This document shows, one piece after another, positions 7,886 through 43,158 of a DNA stretch of 64,000 bases. A program made the position numbers and the translations under genes. The DNA lies in assembly GCA_024698705.1 (NCBI GenBank), contig JAILQX010000017.1:13988-77987 (forward strand), read 5' to 3'. Below the pieces are notes generated by a model. It was given only the letters and a program-made list of their open reading frames with translations. It searched no databases and was not told where the DNA came from. Origin of the DNA: Lachnospiraceae bacterium (GTDB lineage Bacteria; Bacillota; Clostridia; Lachnospirales; Lachnospiraceae). Each line of letters begins with the position of its first letter. Position 1 is the first letter of the stretch.

Positions 7886-8296
7886 TTAATTCCTGTAATC
7901 CTTGCCATGTTTGCCGTTCGGATTGACAAATATGGATTTGAGCACCAGCGCAAGTCCGCCGAACAGCATGATAAAGATCAGAAGCGTGGCAAATAAAGAT
8001 GTCGTATTCCAATAAAGTCTAAGATTCATGATCACATTTGCAATGATCAGAAGGATACTGAGCCCCGTACATATCTTTGATGTCATGTTATATCTGTAGA
8101 ACAGGAAAATGATACTTGCTATAAACGGCACAAAGATCAGTCCGTCCATTCGTCTTCCGAACATCGAAAACGCAAAGATACTGCTCGTCGTTACTTCCAC
8201 ATTCTGCATGAACAGATAACCGCCCACACACAGCATTACCAGCCCGACAAAAAACTGGATTATATCATTTTCACCTAAATTCTCGTTATTTCCCAT
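7886..8296 (-). CDS. Small 4-TM membrane protein, unknown function
   Basis: Four hydrophobic segments. Start set at ATG 8296 (GGAGGAGAGG SD) rather than the track's GTG 8341. Confidence 0.7.
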   Translation of the reverse strand: MGNNENLGENDIIQFFVGLVMLCVGGYLFMQNVEVTTSSIFAFSMFGRRMDGLIFVPFIASIIFLFYRYNMTSKICTGLSILLIIANVIMNLRLYWNTTSLFATLLIFIMLFGGLALVLKSIFVNPNGKHGKDYRN

Positions 8297-8337
8297 ATCC
8301 TCTCCTCCTTCTATCAAACCTGCAATACTAACCCGAT

Positions 8338-9882
8338 TCACCTTCCGGGCTTTCGCATGCCCTGCAATACAGCGAGCAGTACCTTGAACACATCCGTATT
8401 GTCCAGTACGACGATGGCAAGTTCCTTTCTTGCCCTGTTTAGCCCATGGAACAGGTTCCTTACCGGTGATTCATCACCCTCATACCTTGCACGCAGGCTT
8501 CCGTCACCGTCATAATAGAACATATCATCCATAAGCATAACCACTTTATCATATTCCTGACGGCTTGAAAAGTACACTTCCACGCTTCTCGGGGACGTTA
8601 TTCGGGTATAATCGTGCAAATAAACCTCGTTATTTCCGCAGCCGATATCATTTATCAGATCATCGTACACATAAGTGTAATCGTCAGCCATGTAAGAGTT
8701 GATGAGCTTGCGGGCTTCATCGGCATCATTTGCCCAAAGAAGTGACACTGAAGGATATTCCTTGCGATGGTTCATCCTCGTTCCCTGCATCACGCACTGG
8801 ATAAATGACGACAGCTCACTGTTGGTCCTTATCCTGTTGGTGAGCCTGTAATCGGCATAGCCTTCCAGGCCATCTATCCTCCCAACGATATCAGTTGAAA
8901 ATTCTTTCTTTGAGATCACTTTTTCGCTGTCATAACAAAAGATAACAGGCACTTTTAACCTGACAGCATTTGATACTATATGATCAAGCACGTTAACATC
9001 CATGCGGTGAGCCTCGTCGGCAAGTATCGCGGAATAATCATCCAATCCCGGCAGGAAAACACCGTTTTTGCCGTCATAAAAATCTATACGCTTCAGTCTG
9101 CTGTCCAGATGTTTAAGTTCATCGGAAAATGCTCCGCAATGAAATATACATACCTTCTGCTTCTCGGACAGTTTCATGGCTATATCGTACAAAAGCAGAG
9201 TCTTACCCGTTCCGGGAAGACCCGTAAAGCCCTGAAAACAACCGCCCTCAGCCTGTATCTTCTTGAGTATCCTGCGTTTAATGTCCTTCTGACCTGAAGT
9301 AAGAAAATATTCGTTCTGAAGAAATCTGTCCGGATCGTCCAGAGGTGATATGATGTATCTCTCCTCCTTGAAAAGCTCCTCTATGTTGTCCTCGTAGCAA
9401 TGCTTCTGCTTTGCGAGTTCGTTGCACAACTCTTCCCATCCGGCATTCACTATCCTGCCGCTGTTCGTCAGCCTTACAAGCCTGTCAACGGCACTTATGT
9501 AGGTATAAGACCTGATATTGATACCGAGAGTAGACAGATAATATCTGTTCTGCTCCAGTTGTTTCTGTATCTGTTCATCACTTACCGGCTTGCTCTTAAG
9601 CTCGATATTGATGACCGTATCCTCCGAAATACGAAGGAGATCGAACTCCTTTCCAAGTTTCGGGATCTGAAATGAATAATAGAACTTATAACCCGAAGCC
9701 TCCGGTAAAAAAGCCATAAGGTGCTCTACCAGCTGTTCAAGTCCTGTCATTTCCCAGCTTTTTACGGCGATATGACCTGCTCTTGAAGACATCTGGCGTT
9801 CCATCCTGCCAAGGACCGAATTAAGTTCGTCATTTGGCATGGATAATACACGTGTCAATGCATATATATTTACCGGTTTCAA
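8338..9882 (-). CDS. NERD/PD-(D/E)XK-like nuclease fused to a P-loop SF1 helicase-like domain (DUF2075-like)
   Basis: EFDLL...NIELKS nuclease-like motif; Walker A GLPGTGKT; Walker B LADEAH; C-terminal QEYDKV and LFHGLNRARKEL; TTG start. Confidence 0.7.
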   Translation of the reverse strand: MKPVNIYALTRVLSMPNDELNSVLGRMERQMSSRAGHIAVKSWEMTGLEQLVEHLMAFLPEASGYKFYYSFQIPKLGKEFDLLRISEDTVINIELKSKPVSDEQIQKQLEQNRYYLSTLGINIRSYTYISAVDRLVRLTNSGRIVNAGWEELCNELAKQKHCYEDNIEELFKEERYIISPLDDPDRFLQNEYFLTSGQKDIKRRILKKIQAEGGCFQGFTGLPGTGKTLLLYDIAMKLSEKQKVCIFHCGAFSDELKHLDSRLKRIDFYDGKNGVFLPGLDDYSAILADEAHRMDVNVLDHIVSNAVRLKVPVIFCYDSEKVISKKEFSTDIVGRIDGLEGYADYRLTNRIRTNSELSSFIQCVMQGTRMNHRKEYPSVSLLWANDADEARKLINSYMADDYTYVYDDLINDIGCGNNEVYLHDYTRITSPRSVEVYFSSRQEYDKVVMLMDDMFYYDGDGSLRARYEGDESPVRNLFHGLNRARKELAIVVLDNTDVFKVLLAVLQGMRKPGR

Positions 9883-9924
9883 TCTGAGTTTCCTTTCGTC
9901 TAAGTGCTACAGTACTTCATCAGA

Positions 9925-10002
9925 CTCTGCAACACCTCGGTTGCTTATCATTAGGCTCTACAGCACTTCGGTCGCTTATCATTAGGCTCTACAACACTTC
10001 AG
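9925..10002. repeat. 31-bp tandem repeat (2.5 copies) containing the last codons and stop of the DAHP synthase gene
   Basis: CTCTGCAACACCTCGGTTGCTTATCATTAGG / CTCTACAGCACTTCGGTCGCTTATCATTAGG / CTCTACAACACTTCAG. Confidence 0.9.
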
Positions 10003-11020
10003 CCATCTCATATATCATACGTTCTGTTTTTTCCCAGCCGATGCAGGGATCGGTTATAGACTTGCCGTAAACGGTTCCTCCGACTTCCTGTGCACCGTCT
10101 TCTATATAGCTCTCAACCATGAAGCCCTTGACGTGCTTTCCTATCGTTTCATTGTGTCTGCAGCTATGAAGCACTTCCTTGATTATCCTTGACTGCTCAA
10201 ATGGATTTTTGTTCGAGTTGGAGTGGTTTGTATCGACCACTATGGCCGGGTTGGCCAGTCCCTTATCCGCATACAGATCGCAGATATTTATCAGATCCTC
10301 ATAATGATAATTGGGGATGTTCTGACCATGTTTATTGGTATATCCTCTGAGGATAACATGCGCATACGGATTTCCGGGTGAATGAACCTGCCAGCCTCTG
10401 TAAATAAAAGTATGCTTGCTCTGTGCTGCAAGTAAAGAGTTCATCATGACCAGATTATCACCGCTTGTCGGATTCTTCATACCGACAGGTATTCCGACAC
10501 CGCTTGCCGTCAGTCTGTGCTGCTGGTTCTCAACGCTTCTTGCGCCTACGGCTACATATGCGAGCAGGTCATCAAGATACTTGTGATTCTCAGGATAAAG
10601 CATCTCATCGGCACATGCGAATCCTGTTTCATTTACCGCTCTCATGTGCAACTCTCTTGTGGCAATGATACCTTTGAACAGATCTGATTTCTGTGTTGGA
10701 TCGGGCTGATGCAGAAGTCCCTTATAACCCTTGCCCGTGGTCCTCGGTTTGTTGGTATATATCCTCGGCACGATAAGTATCTTATCCTTGACCTTATCCT
10801 GAACCGGAATGAGTCTCGATATATAATCCATGACACTGTCTTCCCTGTCAGCGGAACACGGTCCGATCACCAACAATTTCTTATCACTTCTTCCGTCAAG
10901 GATCTGCTTGATCTCACCGATCTTCCGCTCAACTATCTGAGTACTCTCCTGCGTAAGCGGATACATCTCCTTAACTTCCATAGGTATGGCAAGCTTTCTT
11001 TCAAATTCCATATCCATCAT
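9989..11020 (-). CDS. aroF: 3-deoxy-7-phosphoheptulonate (DAHP) synthase, class I
   Basis: VIGPCS, KPRTTGKGYKG, VGARSVENQQHR, GMKNPTSG, VDTNHSNS, SITDPCIGW. Confidence 0.93.
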   Translation of the reverse strand: MMDMEFERKLAIPMEVKEMYPLTQESTQIVERKIGEIKQILDGRSDKKLLVIGPCSADREDSVMDYISRLIPVQDKVKDKILIVPRIYTNKPRTTGKGYKGLLHQPDPTQKSDLFKGIIATRELHMRAVNETGFACADEMLYPENHKYLDDLLAYVAVGARSVENQQHRLTASGVGIPVGMKNPTSGDNLVMMNSLLAAQSKHTFIYRGWQVHSPGNPYAHVILRGYTNKHGQNIPNYHYEDLINICDLYADKGLANPAIVVDTNHSNSNKNPFEQSRIIKEVLHSCRHNETIGKHVKGFMVESYIEDGAQEVGGTVYGKSITDPCIGWEKTERMIYEMAEVL

Positions 11021-11130
11021 AATTCCAAATACTCCAATCTATTGATAAATATAATATGTCAGATAAAATCAATATGGATATTTTAATTAGTTTCCTGTCA
11101 AAATACAACAATTTTTTGCATGAGTCTAAA

Positions 11131-11241
11131 GAAGAATCTTCTGTGTGGTTTTCGGTGGATTCTTTTGTATGGTTTTCGGTGGATTCTTTTGTATGGTTTT
11201 CGGTGGATTTTTTTACATGGTTTGCATTGGAATCTTTTGCG
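11131..11241. repeat. 24-bp tandem repeat, 3 near-perfect copies plus degenerate flanking copies
   Basis: TGGTTTTCGGTGGATTCTTTTGTA at 11146 and 11170, a variant at 11194, degenerate copies at 11218 and about 11131. Confidence 0.92.
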
Positions 11242-11303
11242 TCGATTGGCAATAAAATAAGTTTTGAAAGCTCGCGACATATATTTCCAATAAATTAGCT
11301 ATT

Positions 11304-11780
11304 TTATCTGTTCTTTTTCCTCTAATCTACCGGTTTTCGAGGGCTAGGACAGATAATTCCTTCGGATTGGCTACTTTATCTGTTCTTTTTCCTCTAATCT
11401 ACCTGTTTTCGAGGGTTTGAACAGATAATTCCTTAGGATTGGCTGTTTTATCTGTTCTTTTTCCTCTAATCTACCGGTTTTCGAGGGCTGGGACAGATAA
11501 TTCCTTTGAATCGGCTGTTTTATCTGTCCGCTCACCCACAGGAAGCTTGATTCTCTTGGGTTTGAACAGATAATTCCTCCGAATCGGCTGTTTTATCTGT
11601 TCTTTTTCCTCTATTCTACCGGTTTTCGAAGGTTTGAACAGATAATTCCTCCGGATTGGCTGCTTTATCTGTTCTTTTTCCTCTAATCTACCTGTTTTCG
11701 AGGGCTGGGACAGATAATTCCTACGGATTGGCTGTTTTATCTGTCCGCTCACCCCCCTCTGATCTATCGGTTTCGAGGGC
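11304..11780. repeat. 72-bp-period tandem array of palindromic 39-nt elements (6 complete plus 1 half)
   Basis: TTATCTGT starts at 11304, 11376, 11448, 11520, 11593, 11665, 11737. Each later copy is preceded 29 nt earlier by G(G/A)ACAGATAA. Confidence 0.95.
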
Positions 11781-11791
11781 TGATTTATCGT

Positions 11792-14728
11792 CTACTGCAC
11801 ATTATATTTGCTGAGGATGCGGGCATCCGGCTGGTAGCTGCCGAGTTCCTCGGCTGCACGTTTTATGATCTCATCATAACTGAGTACAGGTGAAGAGAAC
11901 ATGGCGGACGTAGTGATAAATGTCAGCTTGTCTTCCTTCCTGTTGTAGCCCTTTACAAAATAGATCTCAGCGATCTCCTCCATGTCAGGATTGAGGAGCA
12001 GGCTCGTATTGGCTTTTATCAGATAGTTGCCGTTTGCAGGCATGCTGATGACATCCCAGATGCGGCCGTAATCTCCGTATGAAGTCTTGACAAGATCACA
12101 TGTACCGGCATCATAGATCTGCATTGTGTTCGAATTGTAGACTATGAACAGGTACTTACCGTCGCTCGAATACATGATACTGCTTACAACACCGTAATCA
12201 CCCATGATCTCCTTATAAGGCTTTGTATCACCTTTGTTATATATGTATATCTTCTTGGATTTTGAATCACAGACTGCCGCATGACTGCCGTCTGCCGAGC
12301 AGGCCACATCATCACTGATGAGCCTGAAACCGGTGATATCGATCTTGATACCGGCATCTTCACCGGTCCTTGTATTCTTAAATTCCACGTATTCATTGCC
12401 GTCATCAGTTGTAAAATATCCGAGATAATTGCCGTCTCCGTATACCTCGAGATCATACAGATAAATATCATCACCAAATTCTATAGTCTTACTGTGCTTC
12501 TTTTCCGCAATATCGTAATATTCCAGAGCTTCCCGTCCGAATAACACAAAACCGTCATCGCCGTCACCCACATAGTTGAAGCGATAGTTTGGCGTCTTAA
12601 ACTCGTCTATCAATGAGGCATCCAATGTATCATAAAGTGATACCGTGAATTCATCATCTCCCGTTTCGGTCAGGATGACTCCGTATTTCAGGTTGTCAGA
12701 TGTGTAATCATAGTTGGCAACATTGGCTGTAAATTCCACATTGGGGCTCTTCAGATATTCATACAACGTGACATAATTCCTGCCCTGAGTTGCAAGGAAA
12801 AGCTTTCCCTTAGCCATACAGCTGTCTTTGACCTTGCCGTTGATCTCATATTCATACAGCGAACTGTCAAGGACCAGTCCGTTTTCAAGGACATATCTGT
12901 TGATAGTACCGTCCTTCGTGATAAGGACTTCAAATTTACCGCCGCTGAGCGGGAATGAATCCACTACCGCCGAGCTCAGACCGCTGTTATAATAGACCGA
13001 TCCGTCATAAGGGCTCAGAGTAAAAGGTCCGTCTGAATCCCTCGCGTAGAGGAAATCCTCTTCTTCGCCTTCGTAATAACGCATGTCGTATAAGAATGAT
13101 GCGATCAGTTGATTATTTGTAAATGCTATCTTTCCCTCATCCATGTTTATTCCGATGATCACACACTGATACTCTATGTAATTGCCGGTCGAGGTCGCAC
13201 TTACATAAGCCATATTGTCATGCATGCACATGGTTGTATAATAATCGCCTTCCGGTCCGAGGTATACATTTTGGATCATGTCACCACTGTCGGTATCATA
13301 TACCACGAAATAATTCTTTTCATCTTCCATCAGACCAACACTTACAATGATACCGAACTTACTGCCGTCATCGGAAAATGATGCCGTTATCATATTGGCG
13401 TAATTTTCTTCCGCAAAGTCACCTTCCCACGAGATCATCGGCTTTGTGTATTCAGCCTTTGCCGTAGCCGTATCGATCAGTATGATGTCATCGTTTACAA
13501 CCATGCATTTCGAATGATCACTGTTAAAAAAGGCCTTACCGACATGATCGGAAATATATGTTTTATTTCCGGACGGTATGTCATATATGTATTCACCTTC
13601 TTCGTCGAAAGTTAAGATGGCATCATCATTGAGAAACTTGATGTAGTCCATGTTATTAAACAGATCACCGACACTGAGACCTGCGACTTCTTCTCCGCTC
13701 TCCACATCCCAGATGACCAGATTATAACTCTCATTGAGTGCCGCGATATGTACTCCCCCGGGTGATACGGTGATCCCGGTAACTCCCGAACCCGCATCAA
13801 AATTTGCCATGGGCATGTACAGATCACCTGACGAATAGCAGCCGAGTGCCTTGGTCATGGCCTTCTGTGCTTCTGCGGCGTAAGGTATGTTATCATTGGC
13901 CGGATCTTTGGGCATCGAGTAATAAAGAGCGTAGAGCGCTTCCATCCTTCGTCCCTCGCTCATGATCGTATCCGAAGCATCGGCCATGCTTATCTCGTAT
14001 TTTTTCAGTGATTCTTTGTATTGCTGCTCTATCTCACCGGCCTGACGGCTGATCTCAACGTTCTGTGCCGCTATTTCCTCAGACTGCTTTTTGATCTTGT
14101 GTGCAGTTATAGCACTGTATGTTCCGAATGCAAGTACAACAGCCATGACAGCCGAGCCTATGGCCAGTATCCTGTGCATCCTCTGTTCACGATGCCTCTG
14201 CTTGAGGTCGTCAAAATTAAGACCGAACATGGGGGCTAAAAGCCTGAGGCCCTCGTCTTTCATCCTCTTTTTGATCTCGTCCCGGTTTGCTCCCCTGAAA
14301 TCCGCTGCAAGCGGTTCACAGAGAATACCCTCCTCATCCTTTAAAAGCTCTTCGGGAAATGAATCGGCCGGCTCGCCTTCAGCCAGCACAACAAATACAT
14401 GCTCCCTGCCATGCATTTTCATGAAAGTCTCTATCTCCTTGCGGCACCACAGAGACTCCTTGAGCCTTGGCGTACAGATGACTATGAGATTACTTGAATT
14501 CTTCAGTGCCTCAGTGATCGGATCGCCGAGATTGGCTACAAGCGGCAGTTCCTCCTGATCCCTGAATACCCTGCTTATCTTTGCGGGCAGGTCGGGATGC
14601 GCCTTTCTGACAGAGCGCGGCAGTTTGAAACTCTCCAGATACTTATGAAGTGTCTTCGCAACAAACATATCCAGTTCGCAATGTCTGTAGCTTATAAATG
14701 CGTCATAATGTATGTTTTCCAGATTCAT
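11792..14728 (-). CDS. TIR-domain protein: N-terminal TIR, one TM helix, coiled coil, C-terminal WD40/beta-propeller
   Basis: YDAFISYRH, VFRDQEEL, SLWCRKEI (catalytic Glu position); TM RILAIGSAVMAVVLAFGTYSAI; propeller-like repeats such as ITVSPGGVHIAA...LVIWDV and IMYSSDGKYL...MQIYDA. Confidence 0.85.
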   Translation of the reverse strand: MNLENIHYDAFISYRHCELDMFVAKTLHKYLESFKLPRSVRKAHPDLPAKISRVFRDQEELPLVANLGDPITEALKNSSNLIVICTPRLKESLWCRKEIETFMKMHGREHVFVVLAEGEPADSFPEELLKDEEGILCEPLAADFRGANRDEIKKRMKDEGLRLLAPMFGLNFDDLKQRHREQRMHRILAIGSAVMAVVLAFGTYSAITAHKIKKQSEEIAAQNVEISRQAGEIEQQYKESLKKYEISMADASDTIMSEGRRMEALYALYYSMPKDPANDNIPYAAEAQKAMTKALGCYSSGDLYMPMANFDAGSGVTGITVSPGGVHIAALNESYNLVIWDVESGEEVAGLSVGDLFNNMDYIKFLNDDAILTFDEEGEYIYDIPSGNKTYISDHVGKAFFNSDHSKCMVVNDDIILIDTATAKAEYTKPMISWEGDFAEENYANMITASFSDDGSKFGIIVSVGLMEDEKNYFVVYDTDSGDMIQNVYLGPEGDYYTTMCMHDNMAYVSATSTGNYIEYQCVIIGINMDEGKIAFTNNQLIASFLYDMRYYEGEEEDFLYARDSDGPFTLSPYDGSVYYNSGLSSAVVDSFPLSGGKFEVLITKDGTINRYVLENGLVLDSSLYEYEINGKVKDSCMAKGKLFLATQGRNYVTLYEYLKSPNVEFTANVANYDYTSDNLKYGVILTETGDDEFTVSLYDTLDASLIDEFKTPNYRFNYVGDGDDGFVLFGREALEYYDIAEKKHSKTIEFGDDIYLYDLEVYGDGNYLGYFTTDDGNEYVEFKNTRTGEDAGIKIDITGFRLISDDVACSADGSHAAVCDSKSKKIYIYNKGDTKPYKEIMGDYGVVSSIMYSSDGKYLFIVYNSNTMQIYDAGTCDLVKTSYGDYGRIWDVISMPANGNYLIKANTSLLLNPDMEEIAEIYFVKGYNRKEDKLTFITTSAMFSSPVLSYDEIIKRAAEELGSYQPDARILSKYNVQ

Positions 14729-14739
14729 TTAGATCCCCC

Positions 14740-16245
14740 TTAAGCCTCTTCATACGTTTTAGCAAATATCTTTCCTTCGATTATGTATATATCATCATTG
14801 TCATCTATCCTGGCCGCCATATAATCATGTTGGCGACCCAGCATATAATTCTGGTTATCCCATGAAGTAAATACCTTTACGGTCTTATCCAGTTCTTTTG
14901 CAAGTATGTAGTTTGTCTGTGTCGAACGGCACGGTCTGATGTAATCCCTCAGTTCTTTCATCTCTCCGGTGATCCTGTTCCTGATCGTAGGTGTGTAGGA
15001 TACATCGCATTCGTACGGCTCATCCACTATCATGTATGTGCTGTCGAACTTTTCTTTTCTGATCGGATATACTTCTCCGACTATTCCGACCATTATGTAT
15101 GTGTTTTCATCTATAACGGTGTTGATATCGCCTTCCAATGTCCTTACCGTTATGAGTGTGTCCTTGGGCCAGAATTCCGAAGGATCCACCATACCGATGA
15201 TGATAGGCTTCTTTACGTATTTTTTGAATTCACTCGGATCGATCTTGTATCGTCCCGCATATATCACTTCACTGCTTGCGAAATACCTGTTCATCGCATT
15301 TCCTATATATGCATCGATATCGAGTTCCTTATAGACACTCTCCATCCTGTTTTTGGCGATAAATCCGCCTGCCTTGTCAATGTGACCGCCTCCGTTGCCT
15401 ATATCGGCCGTCAGGAATTCTATCAGCTCATCCGCGTGCACTTCCTTTACACAGCTTCTGACAGAGAATTTATAACCGCCCGATTCCTCGTTAAATACCA
15501 CGCATATGTCTATCACATCCACCTGAAGCAGGAAATCCGCAATAAGTCCGAGGATATTGGGATCGCAGGGCTGAGAATGGATGATCGCGTATCTTCTGTC
15601 GGGATTGTAGACATATCTGATCAGTGCCACTCCCGCTATTTCCAGTTCTCTTAAGGAAATATTGGAGTTGACGAGCAATGATATCACCGACTGGTCATAT
15701 GCAAGAGAATCCTGCATATCGCGATCCAGAGGGTGTTTCATTTCCGCAAAATTACTTGTATCCGTCATCAGCCCATAATACAGAGCCGTTGCCAGTTTTG
15801 AGTTCATATTGACATTAAAGCCCTCGTATCCGAGCAGCTGCCATACAAGTGTCGAGCAGCTTCCCAGTTCGGAACGTATCTCCGTCATGTCCATGGCCGC
15901 CAACGGTGAAGGTGATGACTGATGATGGTCGATTATTGCCAGGCTATCGTATTCAAAGGGGGTCACATTGCTTTCTCCCTCCTGGCAGTCCACGGTTATC
16001 AGGAGGCCGTCGATATGCATCCTCTTGTCATCTATATAAGTTACAGGTATGGAGAATTCTTTTAGCATCAGTTTAAGATTGGATTTCTGGATCTCATTTC
16101 TTCCGCCGTAGATTATCCTGACGTCCTTTCCCTGATCTCTGAAATACAGGTAAAGTCCGTATGCTGACGCCAATGCATCCGCATCCGGATTATCATGGCA
16201 CTGAAGTGTTATCTTGTCGTATTTTTTCAGATCTGAAAGTCTCAT
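14740..16245 (-). CDS. DHH/DHHA1 family phosphoesterase with a duplicated C-terminal accessory domain
   Basis: HDNPDADA, TVDCQ, IIDHH, GLMTDT, GGGHIDKAGG; the C-terminal ~160 aa contain two similar repeats. Confidence 0.88.
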   Translation of the reverse strand: MRLSDLKKYDKITLQCHDNPDADALASAYGLYLYFRDQGKDVRIIYGGRNEIQKSNLKLMLKEFSIPVTYIDDKRMHIDGLLITVDCQEGESNVTPFEYDSLAIIDHHQSSPSPLAAMDMTEIRSELGSCSTLVWQLLGYEGFNVNMNSKLATALYYGLMTDTSNFAEMKHPLDRDMQDSLAYDQSVISLLVNSNISLRELEIAGVALIRYVYNPDRRYAIIHSQPCDPNILGLIADFLLQVDVIDICVVFNEESGGYKFSVRSCVKEVHADELIEFLTADIGNGGGHIDKAGGFIAKNRMESVYKELDIDAYIGNAMNRYFASSEVIYAGRYKIDPSEFKKYVKKPIIIGMVDPSEFWPKDTLITVRTLEGDINTVIDENTYIMVGIVGEVYPIRKEKFDSTYMIVDEPYECDVSYTPTIRNRITGEMKELRDYIRPCRSTQTNYILAKELDKTVKVFTSWDNQNYMLGRQHDYMAARIDDNDDIYIIEGKIFAKTYEEA

Positions 16246-17240: not shown

Positions 17241-17906
17241 TCAAGCTTTGTTGTATTTATTCTTTCTGCGTCTGCGTCGCTTTTTATGTCCATGCTCTGT
17301 CCTATAAGCATTGATCTCATCAAATATGGTCGTATAATCCCTTTCAAATAATTCCTCGCTTACCTGTTTCCAAAGTATTTCCTCCGGAACACTGTCCAGA
17401 ATGTATCTTTGAACATATTGCTTGCTCTTTGCGGCATACATATACAGCCCGTTTATCTGCTGAATGTGTGCAAGTTCCGGTCTCCAGAGTATGGTGATCT
17501 TATTCTCCGATTTCAGTAGCGGGTTGATCTCCGGCTTTCTCAGGACATAAAAATCGATAGCATCACCCGGCTCGCTCCCGGTCTCCATAGCTTCGGCTAC
17601 TATGATGCCCCAGTATTCCGGTACATGCTCCTCGATGTGAGCAGCGTGACTTGAACCGACCACAACTATATTGCGATCGTAATACATATCATAATTTCTG
17701 ACCTGTCCTTCAAGTCTTGTGTAACTGTCGCGGTCACTCTTGATCTCTATACCGTACAATGCATCCTCGGTGACCATCACGATATCCGCTCTTGCCTTTC
17801 CTGTCCTTTTCTCATCAAGGATGCGGACCTTACCGTATTCATTTTCCAGAAAATCATACAGTGATTCTCTTATATCTTTATCCGAAGTTCTGTATACTTC
17901 TTTCAT
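17241..17906 (-). CDS. sce7726 family protein (PD-(D/E)XK-like fold)
   Basis: RADIV...YGIEIKSDRDSYTRL..QV..Y...YD...VV pattern. Confidence 0.75.
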   Translation of the reverse strand: MKEVYRTSDKDIRESLYDFLENEYGKVRILDEKRTGKARADIVMVTEDALYGIEIKSDRDSYTRLEGQVRNYDMYYDRNIVVVGSSHAAHIEEHVPEYWGIIVAEAMETGSEPGDAIDFYVLRKPEINPLLKSENKITILWRPELAHIQQINGLYMYAAKSKQYVQRYILDSVPEEILWKQVSEELFERDYTTIFDEINAYRTEHGHKKRRRRRKNKYNKA

Positions 17907-17989: not shown

Positions 17990-18796
17990 TCATACCATTC
18001 TCAGATCGCAAGTATCAAATACAGTCCCTGTACTTATGTATCCCAGTCTTTCACCCATTACGGCCTTCATGATATCATATTGCTCCTGCCCAGTACAATG
18101 TCCGGTCAGGTAATACGTATCATAACTCATCAATTCCTTCGCTGCTTCCTGTAATCTGAGTGTTCCTGCTTCATCGGGCTCTATACCCATAAAATGAAAC
18201 CCTCCGACAAGAATATCAGGTTTAAACCAGTTCTCGATGTTAAGTATGCCCTTATGCGAGCATCCGCTTATCAGGACTCTGCGATCCTCTTCGAGAAGCA
18301 GGTAATGTTCATGCTTAAAATCCTCCGGTCTCTTCACATTATCAGTCACCACCGAAAGTCCTGCCGGATCTATCGGGCACTTAAGTTCCCTGTCATTGCA
18401 ACTAAAAAGAGTGATGCCTTTGTCGATCTCAAATTCATCACCTGTGTATACTATCCTGTCGGAGTCTTTAAGACTGATGTCTACTCCGATATATTTGTCC
18501 TTTTTATTGAAATGCTCCTCGAAAGCCCTGACATTCATGTAGATCTTCGCCTTGTCATTTACCTCAAAGAATCTCACGAATCCATTGCCATGATCATAGT
18601 GTCCGTGCGACAGGACCGCTATATCCACCTCACTGAGATCGACACCAAGTTTCGCTGCGTTTTCGATGATCGCTCCCGACTGCCCCGCATCAAACAATAT
18701 CTTATGCCCTGCGGTCTCGATATACAGACTGAGTCCATGCTCACACACAAGCGACTCATCTGCAGTTGTATTTTCCATCAATGTTGTGATCTTCAT
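17990..18796 (-). CDS. MBL-fold metallo-hydrolase (COG1237-like)
   Basis: EHGLSLYIE, LFDAG, LSHGHYDH, SGCSHKG, GGFH, GHCTG. Confidence 0.9.
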   Translation of the reverse strand: MKITTLMENTTADESLVCEHGLSLYIETAGHKILFDAGQSGAIIENAAKLGVDLSEVDIAVLSHGHYDHGNGFVRFFEVNDKAKIYMNVRAFEEHFNKKDKYIGVDISLKDSDRIVYTGDEFEIDKGITLFSCNDRELKCPIDPAGLSVVTDNVKRPEDFKHEHYLLLEEDRRVLISGCSHKGILNIENWFKPDILVGGFHFMGIEPDEAGTLRLQEAAKELMSYDTYYLTGHCTGQEQYDIMKAVMGERLGYISTGTVFDTCDLRMV

Positions 18797-18874
18797 GATA
18801 TACTCCGTCTTTAAGTTTCATGATATGCTCCGTCCGGCAGCTTCAAGATATGCTCCGTCCGGCAGCTTCATGAT
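18791..18874. repeat. 25-bp tandem repeat (3.4 copies) spanning the VanZ stop and the MBL start
   Basis: CTTCATGATATACTCCGTCTTTAAG / TTTCATGATATGCTCCGTCCGGCAG / CTTCAAGATATGCTCCGTCCGGCAG / CTTCATGAT. Confidence 0.9.
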
Positions 18875-21737: not shown

Positions 21738-22208
21738 CTACGGTTCCCGCTCTGCATCGGTGTCAACAGCATTCTCGGTGTCTGCGGTGTTCTTATTTGA
21801 TGCGATCCTTTTATCAACAACTTTGAGGATGCATTTCCTGATCACGGTCAGAATAACGGTCACAAATGCAGCCATAAAAAAATACGGCAATATAAAAAAT
21901 GTCCCCATTCCTTCTGTCATGAACAACAGCAGTATAATGGCCAGATACAGCAGAAACGGTAAAAAATCATAAAAGAATCTGTAATTCCTTTTTTCTCTCT
22001 CATAATCCCCATACAAATAATAATGATCCTGCACAACGCACCCGATCACTGTCAGTAAAAGTGCAACCGCAAAACCGATCGCATTCGGCCATCTCAGAAT
22101 ATTAACAAGCAGCGTGAAATTGATATATCCGATCGCCATCCACCACAAAATATGAACGACGATAACTATGCCATTGTTTCTTTTGAAATAATCTAAGAAT
22201 CTGTCCAT
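21738..22208 (-). CDS. Hypothetical 4-TM membrane protein
   Basis: Four hydrophobic segments; GGAG SD; 15 bp upstream of the proC-like gene. Confidence 0.65.
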   Translation of the reverse strand: MDRFLDYFKRNNGIVIVVHILWWMAIGYINFTLLVNILRWPNAIGFAVALLLTVIGCVVQDHYYLYGDYEREKRNYRFFYDFLPFLLYLAIILLLFMTEGMGTFFILPYFFMAAFVTVILTVIRKCILKVVDKRIASNKNTADTENAVDTDAEREP

Positions 22209-22297
22209 TGATCTCCTGTTTGTCAGTCTGCTTTTTGTGGAATGTCAAATACTAATTTCTCTATCCACGCTCAAATAACAGAGATTAGTTATTTGTT

Positions 22298-23422
22298 TCA
22301 TACATAATCTTTTATAATATGTAATTCAATAAGCAAATCTTTAAGTTTTTGTTTTATGCATGCTATAGGAAGAGCAATAAAAACAGCTCTTTTAAAATTC
22401 CCATTTTTTTTCAAACTCTTCATAAACCTTCTCCTTCCAATATGCCTGTTGGATGGATGTTTCAGTTGATGATTCGCATCAACTGCTGCACTTAAATCAA
22501 CCTCTTCTAAATGCAATTCAGCTGTTTCAAGTAAGGCAATACCCTTCTCACTTTGACAAAGGATAAGTGAAACTCCCTTATCCATCTTATCCGACAGCTG
22601 TCCCCATGCATCTCCAAGTGTGATATCAGAGACGCGTTTGATAGACGCGTACCTACAAGAATAGCAATTCTCTGTATAATTAAGACTATTTAAAAAAGCC
22701 AAAAGATACGAATCCAAAACGCGATTAGGCTTAATACGACTTCCATTTATGCTTATTCCAAATCTGTTATTATTTCTGAAGTCTATTTGCGTGATAGTCT
22801 CCCATATAATTCCTTCATCTGAAATGTATTGTTTCAACAAACTTGGCGATGGGGTCCCATGGCAAATCAAATCCATGGTGTATAGTTCTTCATATTCCCT
22901 ATAAAGACTTATTACTCCAGCGACTTGACATGGAAGGCCAATAAAAAGGACTTTCTCACCTCTACTAAGAAGAGTTTTAATCTCTTCATAAATGTTTTGT
23001 GGATTACTTTTAACATATTTTGACCCAGCAAACTTGTTTATATCTTTTACATTATTAGTTGCCTTAAATATAAAATCTCCATCCTCAAATAAACAAGAAA
23101 CCACATATCCGCCTTTTTTTACGAAAGACATAATAATAGCTGAAGCCGCTCCTCCCGATGCTGAGTGTTGTCTGATTTCTTCCGGGGCCCACCCTTGTTT
23201 CCAAAAAATCGGCTCTCTCAACTCGCATAAAACTTCATTTGGACAAACCTTTTTACATGTATCGCAATCCACACACTTTTCCTTATCAATTATGGCATTA
23301 AGTGCTCCTATAGAATCTTCTATTCGTATAGCATTCTTGGGACATACGTTCTCACAAGCTCTACATCCAGTACACATATCAATATCACATACTGTACTCA
23401 TCTTTTCACTCTTTCTCATCAT
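22298..23422 (-). CDS. 4Fe-4S protein with FrhB-type (F420 hydrogenase beta subunit-like) domains, polysaccharide-locus type
   Basis: CTGCRACENVCP, CVDCDTCKKVCP, SASGGAAS, GSKYVKS, GLPCQV, DLICHGTPS, CYSCRY. Confidence 0.88.
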   Translation of the reverse strand: MMRKSEKMSTVCDIDMCTGCRACENVCPKNAIRIEDSIGALNAIIDKEKCVDCDTCKKVCPNEVLCELREPIFWKQGWAPEEIRQHSASGGAASAIIMSFVKKGGYVVSCLFEDGDFIFKATNNVKDINKFAGSKYVKSNPQNIYEEIKTLLSRGEKVLFIGLPCQVAGVISLYREYEELYTMDLICHGTPSPSLLKQYISDEGIIWETITQIDFRNNNRFGISINGSRIKPNRVLDSYLLAFLNSLNYTENCYSCRYASIKRVSDITLGDAWGQLSDKMDKGVSLILCQSEKGIALLETAELHLEEVDLSAAVDANHQLKHPSNRHIGRRRFMKSLKKNGNFKRAVFIALPIACIKQKLKDLLIELHIIKDYV

Positions 23423-24867
23423 CTGCGCAGACTCTTATGCCTATTTAAAACTATATGGGATACTCCCTTAACTAATTCACGAAATTCTTTTCCAAAAACA
23501 CATGGTATAACAATAACGCAAATTATCCTTATGATTTCATATGCTATGCCATTAAAAAATAACGACACTCCCGAAATAATCATTATAAAAAGACATGTAA
23601 AATATTTTAAATCTGATATTTTTATTCTAATATATTTTCGGGTATCAAAAAGGCGATAAATAAATACTCCAACATAACTTAACAACGTAGCAACTGCAGC
23701 TCCATTAACTTTCATCTTTGGTATTAGGATCAGATTCAACAATATATTTATCGTTGCCCCCAATGCTGCCGAAAACAAAAACCCCTTTCCATCTTTCTCA
23801 ACTACATATGGTGTTGCCAAAAAAGATCCTAGAGAAAGAAAAACAAACCCTATTACTAAATATGGTGTATATTTCCAAGACTCATAAAACTCTTTTCCCG
23901 TATACACCCGTAAAAAAGATTTAATAACAAGAAAAATGGATACTGCAACAAAAGAAGCGGTAGCGAACAGTCCTCTAAACACTTTATTACTATATGCTTC
24001 CTTATCGTCACTATCATTTTCTCGGATTGCCGAGTAAGACCATGCCTGGTTAAATATCTGTACTAAACCAGTTAATAGAGATGGGATTTTATATGAAACC
24101 GCATATACTCCATTTGCCGCTTCACTAACCAATGCTGTAACCATAATTCGATCCGATGAATTAGTAACCCACCACAGAAAAGTGTTGGGCGCTAAAACCA
24201 TTGCATATCGTATCATATTTTTCGTTAAAGCAACATCAATATGAAATGCCTTTAACTCTAAAATTACCTTTCCGGCAATACACGCATATATGGAAGTGAT
24301 TAAGTTTGCCAAAATATATGCTAGAAAATACCCTTTTATCCCTAACTTAAATGAAACCAGAAATAAAATATTGAATCCTGCTATTAATCCCGCATTAATG
24401 ATATTCCCTATAGAATACTTTAATAACTCTTCCTTTCCCCTTAAATAGCACAAGAATAATTGACTACTTGCTAACATAAATATACATGCACAAAGATAAA
24501 AAGAGTATTCAGAGATATACTGCGCCTGGTGAAGAAAAACAACCGGAAATACTACGTGAGTAATTGGTATTGCAAAAAGTGTGATAAGTAACGCTATTCC
24601 CCAAATACTTATTCCCGTACTTATAATCCCTGTCCTATCCGAATCTTTATCAAGTGGAAATCTCATCAATGATTCACCTATATTCAATATTACTAGAGGC
24701 GCCAGAACAGTACATATTGTAAAAAGTAAATCTATAATTCCATATTCTTCTGTAGTTAAAACATTCGTATATAATGGCACTAGAAAAAAAGCTATTATTT
24801 TCGTACCCAAGCTACCAATTGCGAAAATAAAGGTATTCTTAGCAAGATATCCCCTGCGTCCCATCAA
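23419..24867 (-). CDS. wzx: Wzx flippase
   Basis: About 12-14 TM; LAKNTFIFAIGS...LVPLYTNVL, SDRIMV...GVYAVSYK. Confidence 0.88.
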   Translation of the reverse strand: MMGRRGYLAKNTFIFAIGSLGTKIIAFFLVPLYTNVLTTEEYGIIDLLFTICTVLAPLVILNIGESLMRFPLDKDSDRTGIISTGISIWGIALLITLFAIPITHVVFPVVFLHQAQYISEYSFYLCACIFMLASSQLFLCYLRGKEELLKYSIGNIINAGLIAGFNILFLVSFKLGIKGYFLAYILANLITSIYACIAGKVILELKAFHIDVALTKNMIRYAMVLAPNTFLWWVTNSSDRIMVTALVSEAANGVYAVSYKIPSLLTGLVQIFNQAWSYSAIRENDSDDKEAYSNKVFRGLFATASFVAVSIFLVIKSFLRVYTGKEFYESWKYTPYLVIGFVFLSLGSFLATPYVVEKDGKGFLFSAALGATINILLNLILIPKMKVNGAAVATLLSYVGVFIYRLFDTRKYIRIKISDLKYFTCLFIMIISGVSLFFNGIAYEIIRIICVIVIPCVFGKEFRELVKGVSHIVLNRHKSLRR

Positions 24868-24868
24868 T

Positions 24869-25834
24869 TCATCTCCAACTTCTGTTTCTTACTGCAATAG
24901 AAATGTATGTATCAATTAAACACATTCTCAATGCTTTACCCACTCTAGTACGATGTCCAACCAGTTGCCATAATAATCTGTACATTTCTCTTAACTCATT
25001 GGTCATCAGTTTTTTGTTTTCTTTATCTGGCAATTGATTCATTGCGCGAATCAAACGATGTCTTACTATTAATTCGAAATACTCGCAGGCATAAACCAAA
25101 TTATCCGGAGCATTATTATTTACAAAAAATTTTTTTAATCCTCTAGCAACATCTATTCCTGACCATTGCCCTGGAAAAAAAGCTCTTTTACTCTGAGATA
25201 ATGGATTTTGCACCCAATGATATAATGGCGTATCATCAAAATATAGTTTTCTCACCTTATACATCAATCTAATCATCATTGAATAGTCTTCATATTGACT
25301 ACCCACTGGGAAAACAACATCCTCTATTACTGATCGACTTATCAGCTTGTTCCACACCGCCCCAGAAGCAGTTTTGTTTTGAAAAAGAATATTATATATA
25401 AAAACTTCCGACTCATATATACCCGAATGCATTTCAACAAATCTATTCTCCTCGCTTCCGTCTATATAAGTCATATAATTAGCGCAACAAGACAGAAGTA
25501 CATCATTATCGATAGCATTCTTTAAGAGTCTCTCATACATTGTAGGTTCTATATAATCGTCATCATCTACAAATCCTATATAATCCCCTGTGGAGATTTC
25601 TATGCCAAAATTTCTCGCTTCAGCCTGTCCCCCGTTTGCCTTGTGTAACACTACTATCCGTTTATCCTCTTGTTTTAATTCGTCACAAATATGAGGAGAT
25701 TCATCTGGGCTTCCATCATCAACAAGTATTATTTCAAGGTTTTCATACGTTTGTTTCATAATCGACTGAACACACTTACGTAACGTTTTTTCACCTCGAA
25801 ATACGGGAACTATCACGCTAATTTTACATTTCAT
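24869..25834 (-). CDS. GT2 glycosyltransferase
   Basis: ISVIVPVF, LVDDGS, ARNFG, FVDDDD. Confidence 0.9.
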   Translation of the reverse strand: MKCKISVIVPVFRGEKTLRKCVQSIMKQTYENLEIILVDDGSPDESPHICDELKQEDKRIVVLHKANGGQAEARNFGIEISTGDYIGFVDDDDYIEPTMYERLLKNAIDNDVLLSCCANYMTYIDGSEENRFVEMHSGIYESEVFIYNILFQNKTASGAVWNKLISRSVIEDVVFPVGSQYEDYSMMIRLMYKVRKLYFDDTPLYHWVQNPLSQSKRAFFPGQWSGIDVARGLKKFFVNNNAPDNLVYACEYFELIVRHRLIRAMNQLPDKENKKLMTNELREMYRLLWQLVGHRTRVGKALRMCLIDTYISIAVRNRSWR

Positions 25835-25880
25835 TTAAAAACCGCCTAAACAATCTAATAATCTAATAAAGCAGGAAACA

Positions 25881-27011: not shown

Positions 27012-27144
27012 AATTTAATCTCCATATCATTCATCCTATATTATTTACCAATTGAATCGGCGGCAGCGTAAAGCCGCATAGAAACTTGACATTTTTATAC
27101 TGTTAAAAAAACATAGGGTATAATTTTAGGAATTATATTCATGG

Positions 27145-27993: not shown

Positions 27994-28005
27994 ATGTCAC
28001 CCAAT

Positions 28006-29094: not shown

Positions 29095-29101
29095 AACAAA
29101 T

Positions 29102-30148: not shown

Positions 30149-30155
30149 ATGCGCC

Positions 30156-31304: not shown

Positions 31305-31316
31305 AGTAGTTCCCTT

Positions 31317-43108: not shown

Positions 43109-43158
43109 TTCCGCATCAAAAAAGGACATCCTTTCGGATGTCCTTTTTTGATGCGGAA
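43109..43158. terminator. Long hairpin / intrinsic terminator after tRNA-Leu(AAG)
   Basis: Perfect 23-bp arms around TTTC, including A6/T6 tracts. Confidence 0.85.

What the first reader, a model, noticed from the sequence alone, without database searches (positions are those of the whole stretch)
11304..11780. CRISPR-sized array of hairpins with compensatory base changes directly downstream of the TIR gene
Seen: period 72-73 bp. Each 39-nt element is G(G/A)ACAGATAA-19 nt-TTATCTGT(C/T)C, separated by 33-34-nt linkers. The variable stem position co-varies: GGAC pairs with GTCC in elements 3 and 6, GAAC with GTTC in elements 2, 4 and 5, and element 1 has a G-U. So 5 of 6 stems are perfect, whereas pairing across the linkers is perfect in only 2 of 6. 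Linkers are of two kinds (TTTTTCCTCTAATCTACC... and GCTCACCC...), giving a higher-order repeat of about 217 bp. The array begins about 10 bp after the TIR gene stop, so it is probably co-transcribed. Inference: a structured RNA or ssDNA array (REP/BIME-like, processing sites, or protein-binding decoys) under selection for pairing. Caveat: block duplication means the covarying copies are not independent.
Basis: partly seen in the sequence, partly recalled or inferred. Interest (0 to 1): 0.7.

Follow-up and report, generated by a model that had tools for sequence, protein, structure and literature searches.

The report
Strain-variable palindromic tandem repeat, not CRISPR
A 72-base unit carrying a 39-base hairpin is repeated about seven times in the gap after a TIR immune-type gene of a ruminant-gut bacterium. 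It is a real, non-coding repeat whose copy number differs between strains, most like the small palindromic repeats (REP/BIME, BOX) known in other bacteria, and it is neither a CRISPR array nor a conserved partner of the TIR gene.

Summary
The array is real. Six full 72/73-nt units plus one degenerate and one truncated unit fill window 11275-11791, from the base after the TIR gene's stop codon towards the DAHP-synthase gene. Each unit has a 39-nt palindrome (10-bp stem, 19-nt conserved loop) and a 33-34-nt linker.

The claimed compensatory change is a single pair (positions 2-38). Its two double-changed copies are block duplicates, and 103 of 500 shuffles reach the same score. Pairing across the linker fits equally well (96.4% of cells paired in both).

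The array is not tied to the TIR gene. Six homologous DHH + TIR-propeller loci have short downstream gaps and no repeat.

It is not CRISPR. Five of seven linkers are the same sequence, all linkers share a motif, the 64-kb window has no cas gene, and Rfam gives no match. It is not coding (no protein match in 5.8 billion).

The unit count at this locus differs between strains (about 1.5 units in one metagenome). The same hairpin occurs singly, doubly and triply with other linkers in other contigs of ruminant-gut metagenomes.

Best reading: a low-copy, lineage-specific REP/BOX-like palindromic element amplified into a minisatellite. If transcribed, it would act as a stack of 3' hairpins. No RNA data exist, so function is inferred.

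The parts
11275..11791 (.). Whole tandem array: truncated unit next to the TIR stop codon, six full 72/73-nt units, and one degenerate unit at the DAHP-synthase side
   Evidence: TRF period 72 and 217; direct-repeat family D1 with spacing 72,72,72,73,72,72; unit table
11747..11791 (.). Terminal linker (GCTCACCCCCCTCTGATCTATCGGTTTCGAGGG) plus a truncated hairpin start. On the minus strand this reads ACGATAAATCAGCC and begins at the base after the TAG stop of the TIR gene.
   Evidence: Read. This stretch is retained in the strain with the collapsed array.
11708..11746 (.). Hairpin U6 (GGAC...GTCC)
   Evidence: Exact pattern match; RNA fold -13.7 (+) / -13.3 (-) kcal/mol
11636..11674 (.). Hairpin U5 (GAAC...GTTC)
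11564..11602 (.). Hairpin U4 (GAAC...GTTC). This is the most complete palindrome: 19-nt arms, 79% complementary.
   Evidence: (inverted repeat I2)
11530..11563 (.). The one 34-nt B-type internal linker (GCTCACCCACAGGAAGCTTGATTCTCTTGGGTTT). It carries the CTTGATTCTC motif shared with linkers at other loci, and it causes the 73-nt period.
11491..11529 (.). Hairpin U3 (GGAC...GTCC), the block-duplicate counterpart of U6
11419..11457 (.). Hairpin U2 (GAAC...GTTC)
11347..11385 (.). Hairpin U1 (GGAC...GTTC). Pair 2-38 is G-T on the plus strand and A-C on the minus strand.
11275..11313 (.). Degenerate last unit U0. Only the 3' arm TTATCTGTTC is intact.
   Evidence: Pattern match with 3 mismatches
11137..11239 (.). 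Neighbouring 24-nt x 4.3 tandem repeat in the same intergenic gap. It shares GGTTTTCG with the A-type linkers and has one unit fewer in two other metagenome strains.
   Evidence: 24-nt deletion at 11146 in X5 and X8
11042..11069 (+). Best promoter-like site of the gap (TTGATA-16-TAAAAT, 10/12), pointing into the repeats on the strand opposite to the genes. Consensus match only.
   Evidence: 3 sites found against 2.6 expected in shuffles

Best explanation
The array is a lineage-specific, non-coding minisatellite. Its core is a 39-nt imperfect palindrome that belongs to a small dispersed repeat family of related ruminant-gut Lachnospiraceae-like bacteria. This makes it a REP/BIME- or BOX-like small interspersed repeat.

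Shown:
- At this locus one [linker + palindrome] unit has been amplified by tandem duplication to about seven copies, including a recent 217-bp three-unit block duplication.
- The unit number and order differ between strains.
- The array has no specific relation to the TIR gene.

Inferred:
- Amplification arose by slipped-strand mispairing or unequal recombination.
- If the DHH-TIR transcript runs into the array, it ends in a stack of six or seven stable stem-loops. As proposed for REP elements, these would slow 3'-to-5' exonucleases and impede read-through into the DAHP-synthase gene downstream.
For: 1. Copy number varies at this locus.
- In metagenome X5 one 739-nt contig joins 11383 directly to 11753. 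It skips 369 nt and leaves about 1.5 units. No contig covers 11412-11615 in that run.
- In X6, X7 and X13 the B-type linker directly follows a different hairpin, so the unit order differs.
- The adjacent 24-nt repeat also varies by one unit.

2. The element is dispersed.
- Sample X1 holds this locus without differences. In X1, and in X2 and X4, the hairpin also sits once inside 3.1-kb, 4.8-kb and 1.1-kb contigs, with 255 nt or more of unrelated sequence on both sides.
- It occurs twice in a 1143-nt contig of X2 and three times in a 257-nt contig of X5.
- In each case the 33-35-nt linkers are different.

3. It is not linked to the gene. Six DHH + TIR-propeller homologue loci lack it.

4. It is non-coding.
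- Every frame is broken by stops or by the 73-nt unit.
- A six-frame translated query found no protein at E <= 10 among 5.8 billion.

5. No curated RNA family matches at E <= 1, including the CRISPR direct-repeat families that Rfam curates. ARAGORN finds no tRNA in it.

6. This stretch of genome is prone to tandem duplication at gene boundaries.
- A 31-nt x 2.7 repeat duplicates the end and stop codon of the DAHP-synthase gene.
- A 25-nt x 3.4 repeat duplicates the start of the MBL-fold gene.

7. The hairpins are stable on either strand, -7.8 to -14.5 kcal/mol. The position, downstream of a coding region between genes transcribed in the same direction, is the typical REP position (PMC3733652).

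8. Tandem internal modules whose number varies between strains are the hallmark of pneumococcal BOX elements (PMC3049150).
Against: - There is only one locus in this 64-kb window.
- A scan of 185,579 GTDB species genomes found no array, only 21 single matches in unrelated taxa, a number I estimated beforehand to be about chance level; the three inspected were isolated single sites.
- Scans of JGI metagenomes and IMG/VR found nothing.
- The family is therefore rare and low-copy, unlike classical REPs. The copy number in the source genome is unknown.
- It is not shown that the other copies lie in the same genome.
- There is no GTAG or CGTC tag next to the stem and no RAYT or other transposase in the window.
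- All units point the same way, unlike BIMEs.
- The hairpin, including its 19-nt loop, is far better conserved between loci than the linkers. That hints at a sequence-specific constraint (a protein or RNA partner) that a neutral minisatellite would not need.
- No transcript data exist, so the 3'-end stabiliser or terminator role is inference only.
- On the gene's strand the hairpins have no U-tract, and the terminator scan finds none.
Confidence: 0.55

Rival explanations
1. A DNA-level protein-binding array. Each unit offers the inverted half-sites ACAGATAA / TTATCTGT and a conserved loop sequence. A sequence-specific DNA-binding protein (a regulator, nucleoid protein or recombinase) encoded elsewhere would bind them, and the array would act as an operator cluster or sink between the TIR operon and the DAHP-synthase gene.
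For: - The hairpin and its loop sequence are conserved between loci (85-100% identity) while the linkers diverge.
- A further CAGATAAAAT half-site lies at 11060-11069, next to the DAHP-synthase start (inverted repeat I5).
- A positionally fixed linker motif CTTGnTTyTC has T in 100%, 93% and 87% of 15 linkers at -15, -14 and -12 from the hairpin.
Against: - No candidate binding protein is identified.
- The half-sites are 29 bp apart centre to centre, which is unusual for a dimeric helix-turn-helix protein.
- A strain with about 1.5 units exists, so the multi-copy form is dispensable.
Confidence: 0.15
2. A structured RNA array that belongs functionally to the DHH-TIR module. It would be co-transcribed after the TIR stop codon and cut into ~72-nt units that regulate or antagonise the TIR effector, in the manner of type III antitoxin repeats or of decoys.
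For: - The array starts at the base after the stop codon.
- The whole region folds far better than shuffles, z = -6.4 (+) and -8.2 (-).
- The locus lies among defence genes: AbiO/Nhi at 8338-9882 and an sce7726-family gene at 17241-17906.
Against: - It is absent from six homologous DHH + TIR loci.
- It is collapsed to about 1.5 units in another strain that keeps the gene's 3' end.
- The hairpin is found at other loci.
- G-U pairs in the loop stem and in U1 favour the plus strand, which is antisense to the TIR gene.
- There is no ToxN/AbiQ-type nuclease nearby.
- There is no significant covariation.
Confidence: 0.1
3. A plus-strand small-RNA or promoter array. The linker motif TTGATT lies 16-17 nt upstream of GATAAT in the hairpin's 5' arm, so each unit could be a sigma-70 promoter. 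In the A-type units the hairpin followed by TTCTTTTTCC could be a terminator. Together these would give short transcripts antisense to the gene direction.
For: - The spacing of 16-17 nt is kept in 12 of 15 independent linkers.
- The scan calls TTGATT-16-GATAAT at 11547-11574 and a 10/12 promoter at 11042-11069 on the plus strand.
- G-U pairs favour the plus strand.
Against: - The best-conserved motif positions are the TT and T (-15, -14, -12), not the TTG that defines a -35 element.
- The A-type units that make up this array have CCGGTT or CCTGTT there.
- The number of promoter-like sites equals the shuffle expectation, and no terminator is called.
- The T-run is absent from linkers at other loci.
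Confidence: 0.07
4. A decayed coding repeat, or a read-through extension of the TIR protein. The frame after the TAG stop stays open for about 93 codons and encodes 24-residue repeats (EQIKQPIRRNYLFKPSKTGRLEEK).
For: The open frame is in phase with the TIR gene, and 72 is divisible by 3.
Against: - One or two of the six frames of a 72-nt unit are expected to be open by chance.
- The 73-nt unit shifts the frame, and the last units carry stops.
- No protein in 5.8 billion matches any frame.
- The TIR homologues end without such a tail.
Confidence: 0.03
5. An orphan CRISPR array with 39-nt repeats and 33-34-nt spacers.
For: - Repeat and spacer lengths are in the CRISPR range.
- The unit at the far end is degenerate.
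- Other contigs show the same repeat with different linkers.
Against: - Five of seven linkers in the window are the same sequence.
- All 15 linkers collected share a motif at a fixed position, so they are homologous to each other and not acquired spacers.
- The repeats themselves differ at 8 of 39 positions.
- No cas gene is found among the window's ORFs that were scanned (47 of 54).
- No Rfam match, which would include the CRISPR direct-repeat families.
Confidence: 0.02

Closest known systems
REP / BIME elements (repetitive extragenic palindromes; bacterial interspersed mosaic elements) of Proteobacteria
   Same: - It is a 20-40-nt imperfect palindrome in extragenic DNA.
- It lies downstream of a coding region between genes of the same direction.
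- It occurs singly and in clusters with recurring linker motifs.
- Its hairpins are stable.
- REPs have been hypothesised to stabilise mRNA and to help termination (PMC3733652).
   Different: - There is no GTAG or CGTC tag next to the stem.
- No RAYT transposase is seen.
- The copy number is low, with one locus in 64 kb.
- All units are in direct orientation, whereas successive palindromic units alternate in BIMEs (from my own knowledge of BIMEs).
- The host is a Firmicute-type gut bacterium.
BOX elements of Streptococcus pneumoniae (boxA-boxB(n)-boxC)
   Same: - Both are small interspersed repeats of a Gram-positive host.
- Both have an internal module in a tandem array whose number varies between strains.
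- Both are predicted to form stem-loops if transcribed.
- The proposed causes of length change are the same: slipped-strand mispairing and unequal crossover (PMC3049150).
   Different: - There is no sequence relationship.
- No distinct terminal modules (boxA/boxC) or terminal inverted repeats were identified.
- The unit is 72 nt, against about 45 nt for boxB (my own knowledge).
- The family is far less abundant.
Type III toxin-antitoxin RNA antitoxins (ToxI, CptI, TenpI)
   Same: Both are tandem direct repeats of a structured, non-coding unit in a defence-gene neighbourhood.
   Different: - Known antitoxin repeats are 34-45 nt and lie upstream of a ToxN/AbiQ-family endoribonuclease gene on the same strand, separated by a terminator (my own knowledge; Fineran 2009, Blower 2012).
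- Here the gene after the array is a DAHP synthase, and no such nuclease is present.
CRISPR arrays
   Same: The repeat (39 nt) and interval (33-34 nt) lengths match, the repeat is palindromic, and the terminal repeat is degenerate.
   Different: - The intervals are copies of one another and share a motif.
- The repeats are not identical.
- There are no cas genes and no match to the curated CRISPR repeat families.

Membership tests
CRISPR array | Near-identical direct repeats of 23-55 nt at a regular interval | tested here: met
   Six 39-nt repeats with 93% mean column identity, at a period of 72/73 nt
CRISPR array | Spacers unique and unrelated to each other | tested here: not met
   Five of seven linkers are the same A-type sequence. 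All 15 linkers from this and other loci share CTTGnTTyTC at a fixed distance from the hairpin.
CRISPR array | cas genes nearby, or a repeat belonging to a known CRISPR repeat family | tested here: not met
   No Cas family at a significant score among the 47 of 54 window ORFs that were scanned. The only mention is a far sub-threshold Cas14/MBL hit, 20 bits against a cut-off of 800. No Rfam match at E <= 1.
REP / BIME | Imperfect palindrome of 20-40 nt in extragenic DNA, typically downstream of a gene | tested here: met
   39-nt element with a 10-bp stem (19-nt arms, 79% complementary in U4), directly after the TIR gene's stop codon
REP / BIME | Many dispersed copies in the genome | tested here: inconclusive
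   - Other copies with other flanks exist in the same samples.
- None lies elsewhere in the 64-kb window.
- No array was found in 185,579 GTDB species genomes.
- The source genome itself is not available.
REP / BIME | Unpaired GTAG or CGTC tag at one end of the palindrome (PMC3733652) | tested here: not met
   The stems start G(G/A)ACAG and are preceded by CTAG, TTTG or CTGG. On the minus strand, GTAG occurs only 19 nt away, inside the A-type linkers.
REP / BIME | An associated RAYT (IS200/IS605-like tyrosine transposase) | not testable with these tools
   None in the window. The rest of the genome could not be read.
REP / BIME | BIME: successive palindromic units in alternating orientation | tested here: not met
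   All units have the same loop orientation.
BOX-type modular repeat | Internal module in tandem, with its number varying between strains | tested here: met
   About 7 units here and about 1.5 in X5; the order differs in X6, X7 and X13.
BOX-type modular repeat | Distinct terminal modules (boxA/boxC) with terminal inverted repeats, and homology to BOX | tested here: not met
   The array ends are a truncated unit and a degenerate unit. No separate end modules were recognised. There is no sequence similarity to anything in the phage or plasmid collections or in Rfam.
Type III toxin-antitoxin (RNA antitoxin repeats) | Repeats directly upstream of a ToxN/CptN/TenpN (AbiQ-like) endoribonuclease gene on the same strand | tested here: not met
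   On the minus strand the next gene is a DAHP synthase (PF00793, E 3e-43; NCBIfam aroFGH). On the plus strand the array runs into the 3' end of the TIR gene.
Intrinsic (Rho-independent) terminator | G+C-rich stem, short loop, then a U-tract on the transcribed strand | tested here: not met
   The terminator scan finds 0 sites. The loop is 19 nt. A T-run follows only the A-type units and only on the plus strand, opposite to the genes.
Integron attC site | R''/R' core sites (RYYYAAC ... GTTRRRY) flanking an imperfect palindrome at the 3' end of a cassette | tested here: not met
   The stem ends read AAAGAAC and GTTCAAA (minus strand) or GTTTGAA (plus strand). Neither fits the consensus (read). 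No integrase is present in the window.

The most novel reading that the evidence does not exclude
The 72-nt unit (a conserved 39-nt hairpin plus a semi-variable linker) is a new family of array-forming structured RNA in ruminant-gut Lachnospiraceae. It would be transcribed and cut into unit-length RNAs by a dedicated protein that recognises the conserved loop, and it would work with neighbouring defence genes (for instance as a regulator or decoy for the DHH-TIR module). That would make it a CRISPR-like or type-III-antitoxin-like array without known partners.
Probability: 0.07. Interest if true: 0.75.

Novelty: new member of a known kind. Interest (0 to 1): 0.27.

Why it matters
If the best reading holds, the finding is mainly a caution and a small addition.
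- It shows that a CRISPR-sized, hairpin-rich array next to an immune-type gene can be an ordinary palindromic minisatellite.
- It adds an undescribed REP/BOX-like repeat family from ruminant-gut Firmicutes, where such elements are poorly catalogued.
- Its strain-to-strain length variation would make it a usable typing marker, and a cause of assembly breaks, for this lineage.

It would matter more only if the conserved hairpin and loop turn out to be recognised by a specific protein or processed as RNA. That cannot be excluded without a complete genome and transcript data.

The conserved DHH + TIR-propeller gene pair beside it has no match in the defence-system library and is probably the more interesting object.

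Tried and rejected
1. Coding repeat. All six frames were read. A 662-aa concatenate of the four mostly open frames was searched against 5.8 billion proteins with no hit at E <= 10. Rejected.

2. Second hairpin in the linker.
- By eye, many linkers looked palindromic about their centre (CCTC/GAGG, CCCA/TGGG, CCCG/CGGG, CGGAAA/TTTCCG and others).
- Against shuffles, the best stem averages 4.2 pairs against 3.4, and the MFE z-score is about -0.55 on either strand. Only one related pair of linkers is individually significant.
- Variants of one linker family break the stem without compensation (CGGG to CGAG).
- Not supported.

3. Loop-linker pseudoknot (GATT/AATC, GAAT/ATTC, GAATC/GATTC). The apparent matched changes need different registers, so this was rejected as a look-elsewhere effect (own reading).

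4. Promoter in every unit. The spacing is conserved, but the conserved bases are not the -35 TTG, and the promoter count is at shuffle level.

5. Homologues of the array.
- A GTDB genome scan with stem-N19-stem gave only single matches in unrelated taxa. Two Lachnospiraceae matches (L010, L014) are solitary intergenic hairpins that look like terminators, and the Clostridia match (L001) is an isolated single site.
- The JGI metagenome scan gave one chance match inside a gene.
- IMG/VR, the plasmid collection and the phage collection gave nothing.

6. Rfam at E <= 1 around the locus and at gathering score for the whole window gave nothing relevant. ARAGORN found no tRNA-like unit.

7. RNA evidence. 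Three searches for RNA runs returned none, or only a run of unknown type that behaves like DNA.

8. attC, type III antitoxin and intrinsic terminator: see the membership tests.

Full report
WHAT IS THERE

The gap between the stop codon of a 978-aa gene (11792-14728, minus strand) and the start of a DAHP-synthase gene (9989-11020, minus strand) is about 770 bp, and almost all of it is repeats. The 978-aa protein has a TIR_2 domain at residues 44-121 and beta-propeller/WD40 matches at 736-912.

Tandem Repeats Finder reports three arrays:
- a 72-nt period (6.2 copies, 11294-11744);
- a 217-nt higher-order period over the same stretch (1.9 copies, 91% matches);
- a separate 24-nt x 4.3 repeat at 11137-11239.

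The pattern GRACAGATAA-N19-TTATCTGTYC matches exactly six times (11347, 11419, 11491, 11564, 11636, 11708). It matches once with three mismatches (11275). It matches nowhere else in the 64 kb, and none is expected by chance. A blastn-short search with the units found no diverged copy elsewhere in the window.

Read on the gene's strand, the array is laid out as follows:
- The base after the TAG stop starts a truncated unit (ACGATAAATCAGCC fused to a linker).
- Six full units follow.
- The last unit is degenerate.
- Linkers are 33 nt (A type, five copies differing by single bases) or 34 nt (one B-type internal linker, plus a related terminal one).

IS THE PAIRING UNDER SELECTION?

- On an alignment of the six hairpins, 9 of 14 tested pairs never vary and only pair 2-38 changes on both sides.
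- The two G-C copies (U3 and U6) occupy the same position of the 217-bp block duplicate, so they count as one event.
- 103 of 500 column shuffles reach the observed covariation score.
- The alternative pairing, in which the 3' arm of one unit pairs with the 5' arm of the next and encloses the linker, gives the same 96.4% paired cells once G-U is allowed.
- In a two-copy contig from another sample, position 38 of one hairpin is compensated across the linker and not within the hairpin.
- Both strands of the region fold far better than shuffles, z = -6.4 and -8.2. That follows from the inverted repeats and does not indicate a strand.
- The only strand hint is that G-U pairs in U1 and in the small apical stem (CCGG/TTGG) would be A-C mismatches on the gene's strand.

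IS IT A PARTNER OF THE TIR GENE?

The TIR-propeller protein has more than 2,000 relatives. I fetched six homologous loci at 32-48% identity.
- All six keep a ~500-aa DHH-DHHA1 gene directly upstream, so DHH + TIR-propeller is a conserved two-gene module.
- Each has only 2-200 bp downstream, followed by a different gene: rpsT, rpmE, a HAD hydrolase, an unknown gene, a convergent methyltransferase, or metG.
- TRF and a relaxed hairpin search find no such array in any of them.

The array is therefore not part of the module.

IS IT CRISPR, A CODING REPEAT, OR A KNOWN RNA?

- Five of seven linkers are the same sequence, and the repeats differ at 8 of 39 columns.
- None of the 47 (of 54) window ORFs that were scanned is a Cas protein or a transposase. 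The window is ordinary chromosome, with a polysaccharide cluster, GH43 genes, purine genes and MgtE, plus a few defence genes (AbiO/Nhi, sce7726 family).
- Rfam gives nothing at E <= 1. ARAGORN finds no tRNA-like unit.
- Two frames are mostly open, one of them in phase with the TIR stop codon. That is the chance expectation for a 72-nt unit. The 73-nt unit shifts the frame, and a six-frame query found no protein at E <= 10 in 5.8 billion sequences.

WHERE ELSE DOES IT OCCUR?

Collection scans found nothing relevant.
- The GTDB species genomes gave 21 single matches in unrelated taxa, a number I estimated beforehand to be about chance level. Two Lachnospiraceae matches are solitary intergenic hairpins that look like terminators.
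- The JGI metagenome scan gave one match, inside a gene.
- IMG/VR, plasmids and phages gave none.

The Logan index places the locus in gut, bovine-gut and sheep-gut metagenomes. Laying their contigs on the locus gave the decisive facts.
1. The copy number varies.
- In X5 a single contig runs from the DAHP-synthase start through the degenerate unit and one hairpin straight into the terminal linker and the TIR gene end. It skips 369 nt.
- That run has no contig for the missing units.
- It also lacks one 24-nt unit, as does X8.
- Other runs show the B-type linker after a different hairpin.
2. The hairpin exists at other places.
- X1 holds this locus without differences. X1, X2 and X4 also hold a 3.1-, 4.8- or 1.1-kb contig with one hairpin and 255 nt or more of unrelated sequence on both sides.
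- X2 holds a 1143-nt contig with two hairpins.
- X5 holds a 257-nt contig with three hairpins.
- All have different 33-35-nt linkers.
3. The linkers are related to each other. Fifteen linkers, anchored on the hairpin, share CTTGnTTyTC at a fixed distance, with T in 100%, 93% and 87% of linkers at -15, -14 and -12. They are diverged copies of one sequence, not acquired spacers.

LEADS THAT DID NOT HOLD

- A second, covarying hairpin in the linker looked attractive by eye but is barely better than shuffles. It is broken without compensation in variants of one linker family.
- The linker motif sits 16-17 nt upstream of GATAAT in the hairpin arm, which is a promoter-like geometry. However, the conserved bases are not the -35 TTG, the A-type units of this array have CCGGTT there, and the promoter scan is at shuffle level.
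- An apparent loop-linker complementarity needs different registers in different units.

INTERPRETATION

The best-supported reading is a low-copy, lineage-specific palindromic interspersed repeat that has been amplified locally into a minisatellite. The neighbourhood supports this, because tandem duplications sit at other gene boundaries too:
- a 31-nt x 2.7 repeat copying the last codons and stop of the DAHP-synthase gene;
- a 25-nt x 3.4 repeat copying the start of the MBL-fold gene;
- the 24-nt repeat beside the array.

In kind it resembles two known classes:
- REP/BIME elements, which are 20-40-nt palindromes downstream of coding regions, hypothesised to stabilise mRNA and aid termination (PMC3733652);
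- pneumococcal BOX elements, which have a tandem internal module that varies between strains through slipped-strand mispairing or unequal crossover and are predicted to form stem-loops in RNA (PMC3049150).

It is not a member of either class. It has no GTAG or CGTC tag, no RAYT in view, direct rather than alternating orientation, no boxA/boxC ends and no sequence similarity.

A role as a stack of 3' stem-loops that protects the DHH-TIR transcript and hinders read-through into the DAHP-synthase gene is inferred by analogy only. No RNA run could be found.

One feature remains unexplained. The hairpin with its loop is much better conserved between loci than the linkers. This leaves room for a sequence-specific partner, either a DNA-binding protein or an RNA-processing protein. 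That is why the rival readings keep some weight.

VERDICT

- The covariation claim is not above chance.
- The link to the TIR gene is not supported.
- The CRISPR likeness is superficial.
- It is an undescribed but ordinary kind of element, of modest interest.

Noticed in passing
window 11792-16245 (minus); loci L023, L024, L025, L027-L030: A DHH-DHHA1 gene (~500 aa) followed directly by a TIR + beta-propeller gene (~980 aa) is a conserved two-gene module. The same order is found in the window and in six homologous loci, with a different downstream neighbour each time. Neither protein matches any PADLOC defence model. It is a candidate uncharacterised defence or signalling pair.
   Followed up: partly
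window 11137-11239: A 24-nt x 4.3 tandem repeat (TCTTTTGTATGGTTTTCGGTGGAT) lies upstream of the DAHP-synthase gene. It shares GGTTTTCG with the A-type linkers of the array and has one unit fewer in metagenome strains X5 and X8.
   Followed up: partly
window 9917-10000: A 31-nt x 2.7 tandem repeat duplicates the last codons and the stop codon of the DAHP-synthase gene into the gap before the AbiO-like gene.
   Followed up: partly
window 18791-18874: A 25-nt x 3.4 tandem repeat duplicates the start (ATGAAGCTGCCGGACGGAGCATATC) of the MBL-fold gene at 17990-18796, giving several in-phase ATG candidates.
   Followed up: no
window 8338-9882 (minus) and 7886-8341 (minus): A 514-aa protein matches the AbiO/Nhi defence models over its full length (E about 5e-122). 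It overlaps by 4 nt a 151-aa ORF that has no family match. A housekeeping-type DAHP synthase (aroFGH) sits between this gene and the DHH-TIR module.
   Followed up: no
window 17241-17906 (minus) and 17990-18796 (minus): An sce7726-family protein (NCBIfam E 1e-42; PADLOC 'cll' E 8e-17) lies next to a metallo-beta-lactamase-fold protein. This may be another small defence-type pair.
   Followed up: no
window 43152-43235 (minus), 43377-43462 (plus), 51482-51556 (plus): ARAGORN calls tRNA-Leu(AAG) and tRNA-Pro(AGG), whose anticodons begin with A. To my knowledge that is unusual for bacterial tRNAs other than Arg. The two tRNA-Leu genes are divergent and 140 nt apart.
   Followed up: no
window 57456-60110 (minus): An 884-aa ORF combines EF-G-like GTPase domains (residues 17-605) with a C-terminal YacP/Rae1-type NYN nuclease domain (746-879). 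It is either an unusual fusion or two genes merged by my ORF call.
   Followed up: no
window 22000-32000: A low-GC block (32-35% against about 44-46% elsewhere) holds a polysaccharide biosynthesis cluster (flippase, glycosyltransferases, pyruvyl transferase, EpsG). It is probably horizontally exchanged.
   Followed up: no
window 11471-11794 (minus): The reading frame of the TIR gene stays open for about 93 codons beyond its TAG stop, through three repeat units (EQIKQPIRRNYLFKPSKTGRLEEK). No protein homologue exists, so this is judged to be chance.
   Followed up: yes
L010 3961-3999; L014 3958-3996: Two unrelated Lachnospiraceae genomes (Acetatifactor muris and a Faecalicatena species) have solitary hairpins with the same 10-nt stem GGACAGATAA/TTATCTGTCC but unrelated loops. 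Both are intergenic, downstream of coding sequence, and look like terminators. This may be coincidence or a shared stem preference.
   Followed up: partly
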